Positions 2,811 through 34,828 of a stretch of 64,000 nt of DNA are shown one piece after another; within the stretch, counting starts at the first letter, position 1, and each line of letters opens with the position of its first letter. Source of the stretch: Eledone cirrhosa (Eukaryota); assembly GCA_964016885.1 (NCBI GenBank), contig OZ024745.1:113150001-113214000 (forward strand). The letters are read 5' to 3'. The translations under genes were made by a program, and so were the position numbers. The notes under the pieces are model-generated. The model was not told where the DNA came from, did no database searches, and worked only from the letters and a program-made list of their open reading frames with translations.

Positions 2811-3187
2811 TTATATATATATATATATATATATATATATATATATATATATATATATATATATATATATGTATGTATGTATGTATGTATGTATATATAT
2901 ATATGTATATATATATATATATGTGTATATATATATATATATATATATACAAATATATATATATATATATATATATATTTGTATATATATATATATATAT
3001 ATATATATATACATATACATACATATATATATATATATATATATATACATATATATATATATATATATATATATATATATATATATATGTATGTATATAT
3101 ATATATGTATGTATATATATATATATATATATATATATATATATATATATATATATATATATATATATATATATATATATATATATA
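2811..3187. repeat. (TA)n microsatellite, representative of dozens in the window
   Basis: Direct reading. These tracts explain the YIYIYI ORFs. Confidence 0.98.
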
Positions 3188-3650
3188 CTATGTGTGGGAA
3201 ATGAAATTTCATTTCATTTTTTCCGTTTATCGTTTCCGGTGCCCCCGGCCGATTAACCCACTCGATATGCAAATTGGGCTACTCAGCCGTTATTATGCAT
3301 AAGGTAAGTATATACGTTCAACAATCTGGCAGGAAGGTATACGTTGCTGACGATAGCTAATAAGCTTGAAACTAGTACAGCGTTCCTTTGTCAGTGTTGT
3401 AAAAACGAGCAACGATGGTTGCTAGACACTACGGCTTAATACGGGTTGTTTGTTTACAAACACACCGAGCATTATAATAAATGTTCGGTGAATCCATACG
3501 TACATATATATATGTGTGCATGTATGTATATATATATACATACTACTGTACGTCTGTATACATATATGTATGTACGTATACATACTTATATTTAAGTAAC
3601 AGCCGTACTAAGAGTGGGAAATGAAATTTCGTTTCATTTTTTCCGTTTTT
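3186..3650 (+). mobile_element. Retrozyme-like element family B, 420-bp monomer plus terminal redundancy
   Basis: GTGGGAAATGAAATTTC...TTTTTCCGTTT occurs at 3194 and 3614 (period 420). Flanked by (TA)n, contains an HHR, no ORF. Confidence 0.8.
3341..3383 (+). ncRNA. Minimal type I hammerhead ribozyme
   Basis: ACGTTG-CTGACGA-TAGCT aata AGCTT-GAA-ACTAGT-A-CAGCGT: stems I and II, palindromic stem III, GUA site. Confidence 0.9.
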
Positions 3651-3934
3651 ATATATATATATATATATATATCAGGTTGTTTTTTCATATATGAGTGAAG
3701 TTTGGTTGGTTGATGCAGTCACGTGAATAAGCACATAAGCTTTCGCGCCAGTTTGTGTTTGAATTTCTTTTTACTTAAAAAAAAGTGGCTCACGAAGGCT
3801 TTTTTTAATAAATGTAATTTGATTGGTTATAAATGAAATAATGACTGTCATGTGAACAAGTACATTAAATTTCGCGCCCGTATTTTGGAATTTTTTATAC
3901 CCATTAGAGAATTTTGTGCCAAACAAAAGATAAT

Positions 3935-4118
3935 TGTTTCTACTTTTGGCACAAGGCCAGCAAATTACCCAGTGCATTACTGGTACTTTATTTTATCGAC
4001 CCCGTAAGGATGAAAAGCAAAGTTAGCCTCGGTGGGATTTGAACTCAGAATCACAAGGATCGTAACTCTATGCGTCAAAGCATGGCGTCCGATCCTCTAC
4101 CGATACTGCCAATCCACC
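3935..4118 (-). mobile_element. Octopus-type tRNA-derived SINE with target site duplication (TSD)
   Basis: Matches the SINE at 49548. TSD CCAAACAAAAGATAAT at 3919-3934 and 4117-4132. Confidence 0.9.
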
Positions 4119-5071
4119 AAACAAAAGATAATGGTCAAGAAAAAGGGATGGGGAAAGTTGTTCTGAGTATGACTGATGTGCTGAAATGTAATTTGATTGG
4201 TTATAAATGAAATTATGACTGTCACCTGAACAAGTTCATTAAATTACGTGCCCGTATTTGAGAATTCATTTGGTGCCTTTTAGAGAATTTTGTGCCAAAC
4301 AAAAGATAATGGTCAAGAGAAATGGGATGGGGAGAATTGTTCTGGTTCAGTGAATATGGCTGGTGTGCTGGGGTGTCAGAATTCAGACTTTTTATTGAAA
4401 TAAAGAAAGTAGAGATATGTATGTTTATTTGTGTGATGGTGTATATATACGTTGTATATTTTATATTGTTGTAAACTGTTTGGCGCCAAAATCTAATAGT
4501 AATAGATGATGGGGACGGTGTTGATGTTCGTTATAGAATATTGGAATATTGAGATGCCCGGAGATTGAATGTCTTCTAGAACTGTATTTGTGCAGCTGTG
4601 ATATTATGTAATCTGACCTTTAATGTTATATATCAATATAATGAGGTTTGTTGGTGCTGCTGTATCTAATAAATCCGCCTCAGTTACTCATTAAAGTATA
4701 TAATGTCAAAGATACAGATGAAAGTTTGGTTGAAGAATGTCACCAGACACATTTCAATTGTAATCTGTCTATTGTATAGTTACTTTTCCAAATAGCTGTT
4801 GGTAACGGGGAATTTGTTTACACAACATTGTGAACAGGGAGATGTTCTCTTTGGACTCGGTTCAGAGCCGGATCTGTGCTGTTCAATAAATCGTTCTTGC
4901 ATTAGCACAAAGCGGGCTATTTGTCGGAATGGGAAAATCGATTATATCGAACCCAGTATTTTATTTCATCGACCCGGGAAGGATGAATGGCAAAGGTGAT
5001 CTCAGAACACAGAACGTAAAGAGCCAGGACCAAATACTAATTACGACTCGTTGCCTTCGGCTCCTGATAAC

Positions 5072-5280
5072 AATTGTTTCTATCATAGGCACAATGCCAG
5101 CAATTTTTGCGAGGTGGGACGTCGATTACTTTAATCATACCAGCACTTTACTGGTACTTTATCGAACCAGGAAGGAAGAAAGGCAAAGTTAGCCACTGCA
5201 CGATTTTAACTCAAGACATCGTAACTAGACGCCATAAATTATTTTCTCCCACGCCATTCCAATGCTTCCAATCCACCCTA
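5072..5280 (-). mobile_element. Older, diverged copy of the main SINE
   Basis: TGTTTCTATCATAGGCACAA...CTGGTACTTTATCGA...CAATCCACC. Confidence 0.7.
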
Positions 5281-32176: not shown

Positions 32177-32730
32177 TTCTTTGAATCTCAGTCATTGATG
32201 TTATTTAACTGGAAAGTGTGTTGAAATGAATATCAAGCCGCTACCTGCAGTCTCAGACATTCAGGACGTATCGGAGGGTTCTTGCTGTTCCCAGCAAGCA
32301 TGCCTTCTGAAGTGTTCCAAAAAGCGTGGCTGGACAAATCTTCTTTAACCCTCATTGGAAACTCTTTGAGATAGTACCTAATGCGCCTACGACAATCGGG
32401 ACGACCTTGATATCATGGCAGTTCCAAATCCTTTTTAACTCCCACTTTAAATCCTGGTATCAGTTAATTTTCTCCCTCTCCTTTTCTTGCACTCTCGTGT
32501 AAAATGGGCAGGCTACATCTCCAATCAGACACGATCTATTTTCGTTGTCCAAAAACCACCAGGTCAGGCCTATTGTGTTCTAATTTCTTGTCTGTCTGTA
32601 TCTTAAAATCCCATACCACCTTCACCTGATCGTTTTCTATCACCGACTCTGGCTTATGCTCATACCACTTCTCAGAATGTGGTAAACTGTTTATTTTGCA
32701 TAGATGCCACTGGATCACCGTGCCTATAAC
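32177..32730 (-). pseudogene. Older 5'-truncated R4/Dong-like copy
   Basis: Homologous to 45897-46450 including the 3' UTR. Frameshifted. 3' end in (TAA)n. Confidence 0.88.
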
Positions 32731-32920
32731 AGATGAAGGACTTAAGTCTGAAACGTTGAAACCTCCTTCACATTCACCAAGCGCGAACATAATACAACTG
32801 TGTACAATTGCCTCCTGCGTTTTGTTCGTTCTTTTCAACTATGTATGTATATATATATATATATATATATATATATATATATATATATATATATATATAT
32901 ATATATATATATATATATAT

Positions 32921-33640
32921 TAGGATTGGTGCTCTGAAATAGAGATGTATACATGAATGTATGCATTGTATATTTGGCAATATACAGTATGTTTAATTAA
33001 AATCATTTTGAAGACCTTACGCTATCATTTTAAAGTAGTGACTATGTCACTTACTTCTTTTCGGCGAAAGAAGCTAACAGTCTGTTCCATGCTGTTTGGC
33101 AATCATCAGAGCTACGTACTGCCCTCTTCCGCCGAAAACTATAGAAGCTGGATTCTTATAGAATTCCAGTAATACATCGCTATTTCAGAGCACCAATCCT
33201 AACATTTAATTTTTGCTGAACTGGCAATCGCTCTGTATAATCAGCTACTGATTATTACTGGAATTCTATAAGAATCCAGCTTCTATAATTTTCGGCGGAA
33301 GAGGGCAGTACGTAGCTCTGACGATTGCCAAACAGCATGAAACAGACTGTTAGCTTCTCTGTCTTCTTTCGCCGAAAAGAAGTGACATAGTCACTACTTT
33401 AAAATGATAGCGTAAGGTCTTCAAAATGATTTAAATTAAACATAGTGTATATTGCCAAATATACTATGCATACATTCATATATATATGAATGTATGTATA
33501 GTATATTTGGCAATATACACTAGGTTCAATTGGCAAATATACTATTCATATATATATATATATATATATATATATGAATGTCTGCATAGTATATTTAGCA
33601 CTATACACTATGTTTAATTAAAAACATTTTGAAGACCTAA
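32921..33640. mobile_element. Retrozyme-like family C fold-back insertion; HHRs 33072-33113 (minus, GGAA mutant) and 33314-33355 (plus)
   Basis: AGCT-CTGACGA-TTGC caaaca GCAT-GAA-ACAG a CTGT-T-AGCT. Arms are circular permutations of the unit seen at 39425. Confidence 0.8.
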
Positions 33641-33903
33641 GGAAAACTTCAATCGTTAAGGTATGTTCCTTGGCTATGTCAAAATTTATAAAACACATTC
33701 TGTATTTTATCTGATAAAAGCGTACCAAAGTTTTTGGTACCCTTGAAATATATATAATAGAATAAATATGGTTTTATAAAATATAGTTTCCATTTATTTA
33801 ATATAATTGAATATTATACTCCAGAAAACTTGTCGAGTGCTCTGAATCAGTTATACACATTTATATTTGTTGAATTACCAACCAATTGAATATCTCTTCT
33901 GCT
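33640..33903 (+). mobile_element. PLE-like P3-related 3' end with mutated HHR (33704-33763)
   Basis: CTGATAA core (G8A without C3U). Homologous to 16743-16935. Confidence 0.7.
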
Positions 33904-33915
33904 TATATATATATA

Positions 33916-34828
33916 TAAACGGAAAAAATGAAACGAAATTTCATTTCTCATTCTTAGTACGGATGTTACTTAAAGTATGTATACGTACATACATATATTT
34001 ATACATACGTACAGTAGTATGATGTATATATATATATACATGCACACATATATATATGTACGTATGGATTCACGGAACATTTATTATAATGCTCGGTGTG
34101 TTTGTAAACAAACATCCCGAATTAAGCCGTACAGTGTCTAGCAACCATCGTTGCTCATTTGTTCAACACTGACAAGGGAACGCTGTACTAGTTTCAAGCT
34201 TATTAGCTATCGTCAGCAACGTATACCTTCCTTCCAGATGGTTAAACGTCTGAAAGTATATACTTTCCTTATGCATATTAACGGCTGAGCAGCCTAATTT
34301 GCATATCGAGTGAGTTAATCGGCCGGGGTACCGAAAACGATAAACGGAAAAAATGAAACGAAATTTCATTTCTCACTCTTAGTAGGGCTGTTACTTAAAT
34401 ATAAGTATGTATACATACATACATATATGTATACAGACGTACAGTAGTATGTATATATATATATATATACATACATGCACACATATATATATGTACGTAT
34501 GGATTCACCGAATATTTATTATAATGCTCGGCGTGTTTGTAAACAAACATCCCGAATTAAACTTCTCACTCTTAGTACGGCTGTTACTTAAATATAAGTA
34601 TGTATACGTACATACATATATGTGTTGAACAAATGAGCAACGATGGTTGCTAGACACTGTACGGCTTAATTCGGGATGTTTGTTTACAAACACGCCGAGC
34701 ATTATAATAAATGTTCGGTGAATCCATACGTACATATATATATATATGTGTGCATGTATATATATATATATACATACTACTGTACGTCTGTATACATATA
34801 TGTATGTACGTATACATACTTATATTTA
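33916..34828. mobile_element. Retrozyme-like family B: about 1.5 tandem units of 425 bp plus an inverted arm; HHR 34180-34222 on minus
   Basis: TAAACGGAAAAAATG at 33916 and 34341. Inverted arm 34623-34828. Flanked by (TA)n. HHR identical to 3341-3383. Confidence 0.85.

What the first reader, a model, noticed from the sequence alone, without database searches (positions are those of the whole stretch)
3186..34828. Sister retrozyme-like family B (420-425 bp) keeps only a few blocks in common with the 460-bp family
Seen: two dispersed insertions (3186-3650 and 33916-34828) of 1.1 and about 1.5 units, the second with an inverted arm. The blocks shared with family A are TTG-CTGANGA...GAAACTAGT, TATGCAAATT and AAATTTCRTTTC...TTTATCGTYTCCG, in the same order. 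Stems I and II differ in sequence but still pair. Inference: selection on a small set of cis elements in a diversified lineage of mobile non-coding RNA.
Basis: partly seen in the sequence, partly recalled or inferred. Interest (0 to 1): 0.75.

Follow-up and report, generated by a model that had tools for sequence, protein, structure and literature searches.

The report
Sister retrozymes share promoter and ends
These two stretches are copies of a very abundant non-coding jumping repeat with a predicted self-cutting RNA, and the blocks it shares with its sister family match the host's U6-type promoter, the ribozyme and two fixed insertion end points, so it likely makes its own RNA and is likely pasted into TA repeats by Penelope-type enzymes.

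Summary
Real, but 'only a few blocks' understates it: units A and B are colinear and 62% identical end to end. B has at least 8,256 exact hammerhead cores genome-wide, among about 40,000 related cores. The shared blocks have readable roles. (1) A type I hammerhead with covarying stems and a one-pair palindromic stem III, predicted to cut as a dimer. (2) TATGCAAATT(A/G)G is the -77 element of this genome's U6, U6atac, MRP and tRNA-Sec promoters; a TATA-like box follows at a fixed 42 nt (host 46-48). (3) The hairpin/T-run/TTTATCG block straddles one of two fixed insertion ends 58 nt apart; back-to-back insertions into (TA)n use one end each (14 of 16 inverted arms, none the same end), the Penelope 'tail' signature. 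Best reading: non-autonomous, self-promoted non-LTR retrozymes copied from RNA circles by a Penelope-like enzyme. Transcription, cleavage and the partner element were not shown. Neither window locus has two tandem ribozymes, so both are probably dead ends. The scan's earlier notes already report the two-end footprint and the U6-type promoter on other DNA of this genome.

The parts
3186..3650 (+). Family B insertion 1: one arm, 1.1 units, ends at the long (L) end, set in (TA)n
3198..3238 (+). Conserved hairpin, T6 run and TTTATCGTTTCCG block (internal copy of the L end site)
3266..3278 (+). U6-type upstream promoter element (TATGCAAATTGGG; one mismatch to the host consensus)
3306..3314 (+). TATA-like block, TATATA starting 42 nt after the ATG of the upstream element
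3341..3383 (+). Type I hammerhead: core from 3347, predicted cut after 3377, one-pair stem III with palindromic CUAG loop, U.U at base of stem II
3490..3585 (+). Long TA-rich hairpin, shared with family A
3580..3589 (+). Short (S) end site, read through in this copy
3590..3650 (+). 58-nt 'tail' between S and L ends, with hairpin 3618-3635; L end joins (TA)n at about 3650
33915..34623 (-). Family B insertion 2, main arm: 1.5 units plus a 69-nt jumped piece (34555-34623); L end at about 33915
34180..34222 (-). Type I hammerhead of insertion 2 (core from 34216, predicted cut after 34186)
34257..34305 (-). Upstream promoter element (from 34305) and TATA-like block (from 34265) of insertion 2
34622..34828 (+). 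Inverted arm of insertion 2, ends at the S end against (TA)n
25522..30754 (.). Family A array (460-nt unit, 9 units on -, 2.3 on +), L end at 25522 and S end at 30754; the comparison family

Best explanation
Family B is a non-coding tandem/dispersed repeat with a type I hammerhead motif, sister to family A, that likely transcribes itself from a U6-type promoter carried inside each unit, is predicted to cut into unit-length RNA circles, and is likely copied into TA microsatellites by a borrowed Penelope-like enzyme starting at two fixed internal sites. Steps: (1) shown: each unit holds the host's U6-type upstream element, a TATA-like box 42 nt on, then the ribozyme. (2) Inferred: RNA polymerase III starts just before the ribozyme and sometimes reads through the T5-T7 run into the next unit. 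(3) Inferred from the one-pair palindromic stem III: two ribozymes in tandem cut as a dimer, and a host ligase closes monomer or dimer circles, which contain the promoter. (4) Shown: insertions end at two fixed sites (S and L) against (TA)n, and back-to-back insertions use one of each; inferred: both cut target strands prime reverse transcription, one at each site, and run round the circle for a variable length. Only arms with two tandem ribozymes would seed new circles; the two window loci have one each.
For: Copy number and controls. Hammerhead covariation: 7 of 14 pairs change on both sides, 0 of 500 shuffles reach the score (8 related sequences). Circular folds z=-8.1 (A) and -7.0 (B); 24 of 100 consensus pairs with double changes. 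Promoter element at -76 to -79 in 3 U6 loci, U6atac, MRP and 2 tRNA-Sec genes, absent at that place in 6 U1, 4 U2, 3 U3, 3 7SL loci and RNase P; 6 of 9 subfamily representatives score 21.0 bits, host leave-one-out 12.4-20.3, background 1 of 114,680 sites at 16 or more. Two further hammerhead families with different spacers keep the element plus TATA: D at +43, E at the host spacing. Ends: 16 of 23, 11 of 15 and 17 of 19 two-armed loci are L+S, none L+L or S+S; 14 of 16 inverted arms end at S, none at L, in loci picked by the L end; 2,684 exact L-end/TA junctions. This matches two-site internal initiation and the 'tail' shown for a Penelope enzyme in vitro (PMC11167929). Arms run to many units with scattered 5' ends; 2 of 6 B arrays of four or more units alternate two unit types in step. 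RT plus GIY-YIG elements are abundant in the genome.
Against: No transcript, cleavage or circle was observed. The element-to-TATA spacing is 42 nt, not the host's 46-48. Units hold T5-T7 runs that polymerase III would have to pass. No pile-up of 5' ends at the predicted start (6 of 216, 6.4 expected). The 7SK candidate lacks the element at -77, and 8 of 11 U6 and 5 of 6 U6atac loci also lack it and were set aside as processed pseudogenes. In a wider, older set only 43 of 116 arm pairs were L+S, 3 were same-end and 70 had an end elsewhere. No autonomous element sharing the ends or ribozyme was found among 50 GIY-YIG loci. B's stem II has a U.U at its base. The tail (58-70 nt) is longer than the 30-40 nt reported for Penelope elements.
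Confidence: 0.68

Rival explanations
1. Same element and insertion route, but the promoter block recruits RNA polymerase II (snRNA-type, as reported for newt satellite 2), the shortened spacing having switched polymerase, so T-runs do not stop it.
For: Spacing 42-43 nt in families A-D against 46-48 in host polymerase III genes. B and C have TCAG 26 nt before the TATA box, the distance seen for TCAGT in U1/U2 promoters. T5-T7 runs inside units. Newt satellite 2 is described as polymerase II-driven from an snRNA promoter (PMC2220036, PMC6765202, passages).
Against: The 12-13-nt element is found only in polymerase III-type host genes examined; the TCAG match is four letters and absent in A; family E has the exact U6 spacing; B's TCA-T6 resembles host terminators of MRP, tRNA-Sec, 7SK and 7SL.
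Confidence: 0.2
2. The shared blocks are kept for RNA structure or enzyme recognition only; the promoter match is a relic and the RNA comes from read-through of neighbouring transcription, or the units are orphaned terminal repeats of an extinct Penelope element spreading partly by DNA-level tandem amplification.
For: The promoter element and TATA block both lie in predicted hairpins; no start-site signal in 5' ends; non-canonical spacing; alternating units could come from unequal crossing-over; a preprint derives vertebrate retrozymes from Penelope terminal repeats (10.64898/2026.07.22.740005).
Against: The element and its distance to the TATA block are kept while the spacer differs (A, B, D, E); both arms of young insertions start at fixed sites with many near-identical units, which DNA slippage would not give; no Penelope terminal repeat with these blocks was found.
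Confidence: 0.12

Closest known systems
Metazoan non-LTR retrozymes (coral, mussel, axolotl; PMC7229834; 10.64898/2026.07.22.740005)
   Same: Non-coding 300-500-nt unit, one type I hammerhead per unit, tandem and dispersed copies, AT-rich, strongly self-paired as a circle, several families per genome; stem III like HHR_Amex1 and stem II U.U like HHR_Amex2.
   Different: A U6-type promoter in the unit and two-armed insertions with two fixed ends are not described in the parts read; no RNA data here.
Endonuclease-bearing Penelope-like elements (10.1101/2021.04.23.441226; PMC11167929; PMC4209133)
   Same: Inverted 5' arm, tail on one end only, two fixed internal start sites, (TA)n or AT-rich targets, dimer-type hammerhead.
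   Different: No protein-coding frame; tail 58-70 nt; no autonomous element with the same terminal sequence found.
Newt satellite 2 and schistosome Sm-alpha hammerhead repeats (seen only as passages in PMC2220036 and PMC6765202)
   Same: Promoter inside the repeat unit ahead of a hammerhead; tandem arrangement needed to regenerate a full unit.
   Different: Newt: reported polymerase II snRNA promoter; schistosome: described only as a polymerase III promoter in the passages seen. Here the match is to the gene-external U6/MRP/tRNA-Sec element with shortened spacing.

Membership tests
Non-LTR retrozyme | Canonical type I hammerhead in each unit | tested here: met
   Core CUGANGA/GAAA/UH with covarying stems; Rfam HH9 38.9 bits for A, below the 52-bit cut-off, and B not among the 150 listed hits.
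Non-LTR retrozyme | Short non-coding unit in tandem and dispersed copies | tested here: met
   420-447-nt units, arrays up to 10 units in sampled B loci, thousands of sites.
Non-LTR retrozyme | Two tandem hammerheads in a locus ('active' by the preprint's definition) | tested here: not met
   Not met for the two window loci (one core each); met for other B loci such as L093, L161, L162.
Non-LTR retrozyme | Highly self-paired predicted circle | tested here: met
   z=-7.0 (B), -8.1 (A) against 100 shuffles.
Non-LTR retrozyme | Self-cleavage and circular RNA in vivo | not testable with these tools
Penelope-mobilised element | Inverted arm with a tail on one end; two fixed ends | tested here: met
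Penelope-mobilised element | AT-rich or microsatellite target | tested here: met
   TA-rich flank at 23 of 29 S ends and 27 of 30 L ends against 6 of 24 5' ends.
Penelope-mobilised element | Terminal sequence shared with an autonomous element | tested here: inconclusive
   None among 50 of about 10,600 GIY-YIG candidates; only a 9-nt motif in one family's 3' region.
Type 3 (U6-like) polymerase III promoter | Host upstream element | tested here: met
Type 3 (U6-like) polymerase III promoter | TATA box at the host spacing (46-48 nt) | tested here: not met
   42 nt in A, B, C; 43 in D; host spacing only in old family E.
Type 3 (U6-like) polymerase III promoter | Start site about 30 nt after TATA | tested here: inconclusive
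   No excess of genomic 5' ends there, which a circular template would also give.

The most novel reading that the evidence does not exclude
These retrozymes solve the problem that normally bars mobile RNAs from using a gene-external U6 promoter: the promoter travels inside the RNA circle, a leaky TCA-T6 terminator and a half-turn-shortened spacing tune read-through, and a Penelope enzyme primes both target strands at two sites flanking the terminator hairpin and rolls round monomer or dimer circles. At least five lineages in one genome (A-E) would share this four-part cassette.
Probability: 0.35. Interest if true: 0.75.

Novelty: new variant of a known kind. Interest (0 to 1): 0.5.

Why it matters
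How animal retrozymes are transcribed and which enzyme moves them are left open in the papers read (PMC7229834 Discussion; the 2026 preprint). Comparing sister families isolates the cis parts: a promoter block, a dimer-type ribozyme and two reverse-transcription start sites. That gives a minimal, testable substrate for Penelope enzymes (a non-coding circle with defined start sites) and a candidate host U6-type promoter consensus. The class itself is known and the two window copies are ordinary.

Tried and rejected
Partner search: 30 top and 20 long-frame GIY-YIG loci compared with A and B units gave only nested A/B/C insertions and short chance-level matches. Patterns for other hammerheads with the same stem III returned mostly B and C variants. 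Run search: no RNA holder listed. Contigs of runs coded as organisms A, B, C, D, F, G, H carry B- or C-like pieces, nature of runs not on record; the depth spike falls on the TA-rich zone and was rejected as low-complexity matching. A first impression of 5' ends piling up near the predicted start (4 of 24) vanished in the larger set (6 of 216). 5' ends at the ribozyme cut: 7 of 216 against 2.9 expected, one likely misassigned; weak. Same-template test of the two arms: only 9 of 47 are closest to their own partner, mean 4.3% apart against 8.1% for other loci, so subfamily-level only. The two alternating arrays L161 and L106 are different dimers. Homology of family D to A/B outside the promoter and ribozyme: weak scores (p 0.003-0.02), spacer not alike; left open. 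Pair counts used a wrong landmark and were replaced; one search counted TA flanks as arms and was replaced; alignment A2 held mis-set rows and was replaced by A3. Rfam microRNA hits on the TA-rich hairpin are below gathering scores and rejected. Monomer folding does not give the active hammerhead as the best structure, as expected for a one-pair stem III. The Coats 1994 paper was not held.
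Full report
Observation. Both stretches are there. Locus 1 (3186-3650, +) is 1.1 copies of a 420-nt unit between TA microsatellites; locus 2 is 1.5 units on the minus strand (33915-34560), a 69-nt jumped piece and a 207-nt inverted arm ending at 34828. They are 90.5% identical. Family A is the 460-nt array at 25522-30754. With both units rotated to the predicted ribozyme cut, A and B align end to end at 292 of 471 columns (62%), z=19.6 against 500 shuffles and z=15.3 with the ribozyme removed. So the named blocks are peaks on a fully colinear homology, not the only likeness.

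Abundance. In the window's own 3.0-Gb assembly, the B core occurs exactly 8,256 times; the looser A/B pattern 19,625 times; variants with another base before the core 19,892 and 886 times; reversed controls give 0, 0, 1 and 48. From 417 extracted units (118 distinct) three groups emerge: A (460-469 nt), B (about 420-447) and C (464-538), with A about 70% and C about 85% identical to B over ungapped columns. Between A and B/C, 228 of 423 columns are conserved; the 3' hairpin (16/18), TATCG block (9/12), promoter block (11/13), TATA block (9/10) and ribozyme (27/41) stand above the post-ribozyme body (35/97); clumping p=0.007. The blocks were chosen on this alignment, so this is supportive, not proof, of selection.

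Block 1, the ribozyme. It is a type I hammerhead. Stem I pairs fully in the common variants of all groups; stem II is five pairs in A and four pairs plus U.U in B and C; stem III is one pair closed by the palindrome CUAG. On eight related sequences 7 of 14 pairs change on both sides and no shuffle of 500 reaches the score. PMC7229834 (sections 15 and 17 read) describes both features in axolotl retrozymes and reports that such ribozymes cut much better as dimers; PMC4209133 (part 1 of 4) gives the same dimer logic. Each window locus has only one core per arm, so neither is predicted to release a unit.

Block 2, the promoter. I suspected an octamer (note) and fetched host small-RNA genes. TATG(C)(A)AAT(T/G)AG sits at -76 to -79 in three U6 loci, the top U6atac gene, RNase MRP and two tRNA-Sec genes, with TATA 46-48 nt later; it is absent at that place in 6 U1, 4 U2, 3 U3 and 3 7SL loci, RNase P and the weak 7SK candidate. 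Eight further U6 and five U6atac hits lack it and were set aside as processed pseudogenes because of repeat flanks and altered 5' ends. A matrix from six host genes scores 6 of 9 subfamily representatives at 21.0 bits and the others at 12.2-16.5 (host leave-one-out 12.4-20.3; 1 of 114,680 background sites reaches 16); 100 of 118 distinct units keep TATGCAAATT(A/G)G. A TATA-like block follows at 42 nt in A, B and C. A genome-wide pattern gave 19,706 hits against 1 control and exposed family D, a hammerhead repeat with a different spacer, the same element and TATA at 43 nt; a pattern at host spacing gave 284 hits, mostly an old decayed hammerhead family E. The predicted start lies 3-28 nt before the core (inference). 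Against a plain U6 promoter: the spacing is 4-6 nt short, units contain T5-T7 runs, and genomic 5' ends show no excess at the predicted start (6 of 216, 6.4 expected). B's TCA-T6 resembles the TCA-T5+ terminators of MRP, tRNA-Sec, 7SK and 7SL, while U6 genes end in T7-T10, so leaky termination is plausible but untested.

Block 3, the ends. Insertions stop at two fixed unit positions, S (about 212-217 from the cut in B, 226-232 in A) and L (270-273; 296), usually against (TA)n. The hairpin and T-run lie between them and TTTATCG straddles L. In loci with two back-to-back arms and both ends visible, L+S was found in 16 of 23 (B, 44 loci taken in order along one contig; two are a local duplicate), 11 of 15 (B, best matches) and 17 of 19 (A), with no L+L or S+S. 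Picking 30 loci by the L junction alone (partly the same loci), 14 of 16 inverted arms end at S and none at L; 13 are one-armed and one is cut. A wider set of 209 loci with older copies was noisier: 43 L+S, 3 same-end and 70 with an end elsewhere among 116 pairs. There are 2,684 exact L-end/TA junctions and 2,744 read-through copies of one variant. Penelope-like insertions have an inverted arm and a 30-40-nt tail on one end (10.1101/2021.04.23.441226, passages), and a purified Penelope protein cuts and extends both strands of AT-rich DNA and starts at two internal RNA sites that bound the tail (PMC11167929, parts 1-2 of 4). The genome has about 10,600 GIY-YIG candidates, with RT plus GIY-YIG frames up to about 1,000 residues, but none of the 50 loci examined shares the A/B ends.

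Template. Arms include the promoter and run to many units with scattered 5' ends, so the template must be read-through or circular RNA. In L161 nine units alternate 420/422 nt, neighbours differing at about 13 sites and units two apart mostly identical; L106 does likewise; four other B arrays do not. A two-unit circle copied round and round explains this; unequal crossing-over is not excluded.

Comparison and novelty. The family meets the sequence-level features of metazoan non-LTR retrozymes (PMC7229834; preprint 10.64898/2026.07.22.740005, parts 1-3 of 5 read, which sampled no mollusc). A promoter inside a hammerhead repeat is reported for newt satellite 2 and schistosome repeats (passages in PMC2220036 and PMC6765202; the original newt paper was not held). 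Eight searches (listings only) showed no paper on a U6-type promoter in retrozymes or on these families; supplements of PMC7229834 were not opened and those of the preprint are closed, and either could list related repeats. The scan's own notes, seen, already report the two-end footprint (including a 422-nt family with ends 59 bases apart) and the U6-type promoter on other DNA of this genome; my end counts and promoter tests preceded the matching notes, except that one note title mentioning a promoter was seen. They are not independent support. What this comparison adds is the assignment of all three shared blocks, the fixed but shortened spacing, and the negative results on start site and partner.

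Verdict. A real, very abundant retrozyme family; a new variant of a known kind; mechanism likely but not shown. Interest 0.5.

Noticed in passing
window 38187-38807, 15120-15135, 16630-16750, 33109-33318, 50583-50848: Other fold-back elements with a hammerhead-like motif on each arm, unrelated to A/B; the same motifs recur near Penelope loci elsewhere.
   Followed up: no
window 8657, 31097, 39589: Single hammerhead-like motifs of further families.
   Followed up: no
window 43957-47164 and 32133-32432: Nested copies of a non-LTR retrotransposon 3' end with an (ATT)n tail; open frames of 470 and 397 residues on the minus strand, ending in a CCHC-like and restriction-like motif by eye.
   Followed up: partly
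window 55694-56967: 71-bp minisatellite arrays.
   Followed up: no
L393-L398: Family D: hammerhead repeat with stem III palindrome ATGCAT, the same upstream promoter element, TATA at +43 and two-armed insertions.
   Followed up: partly
L420-L446: Family E: old, decayed hammerhead repeat whose element-to-TATA spacing equals that of host U6 genes; about 250 exact hits.
   Followed up: partly
L263-L341, L392, L413-L417: In this genome U1, U2 and U3 genes also have a TATA-like box near -30; U1/U2 share TCAGT near -57; RNase P has that polymerase II-type motif rather than the U6 element; a TTACCTCCCTT-like distal motif is shared by U1, U2 and U6.
   Followed up: partly
L161:2015-6766 and L106:1427-3573: Arrays alternating two unit types in strict step, suggesting two-unit circular templates.
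   Followed up: yes
L131, L132, L134 and related loci: The commonest Penelope family carries ATTTCGTTT in a small hairpin about 90 nt before its end, like the A/B tail hairpin; chance not excluded.
   Followed up: partly
L160, L184, L188: An autonomous Penelope family also shows two end points about 45 nt apart against (TA)n.
   Followed up: partly
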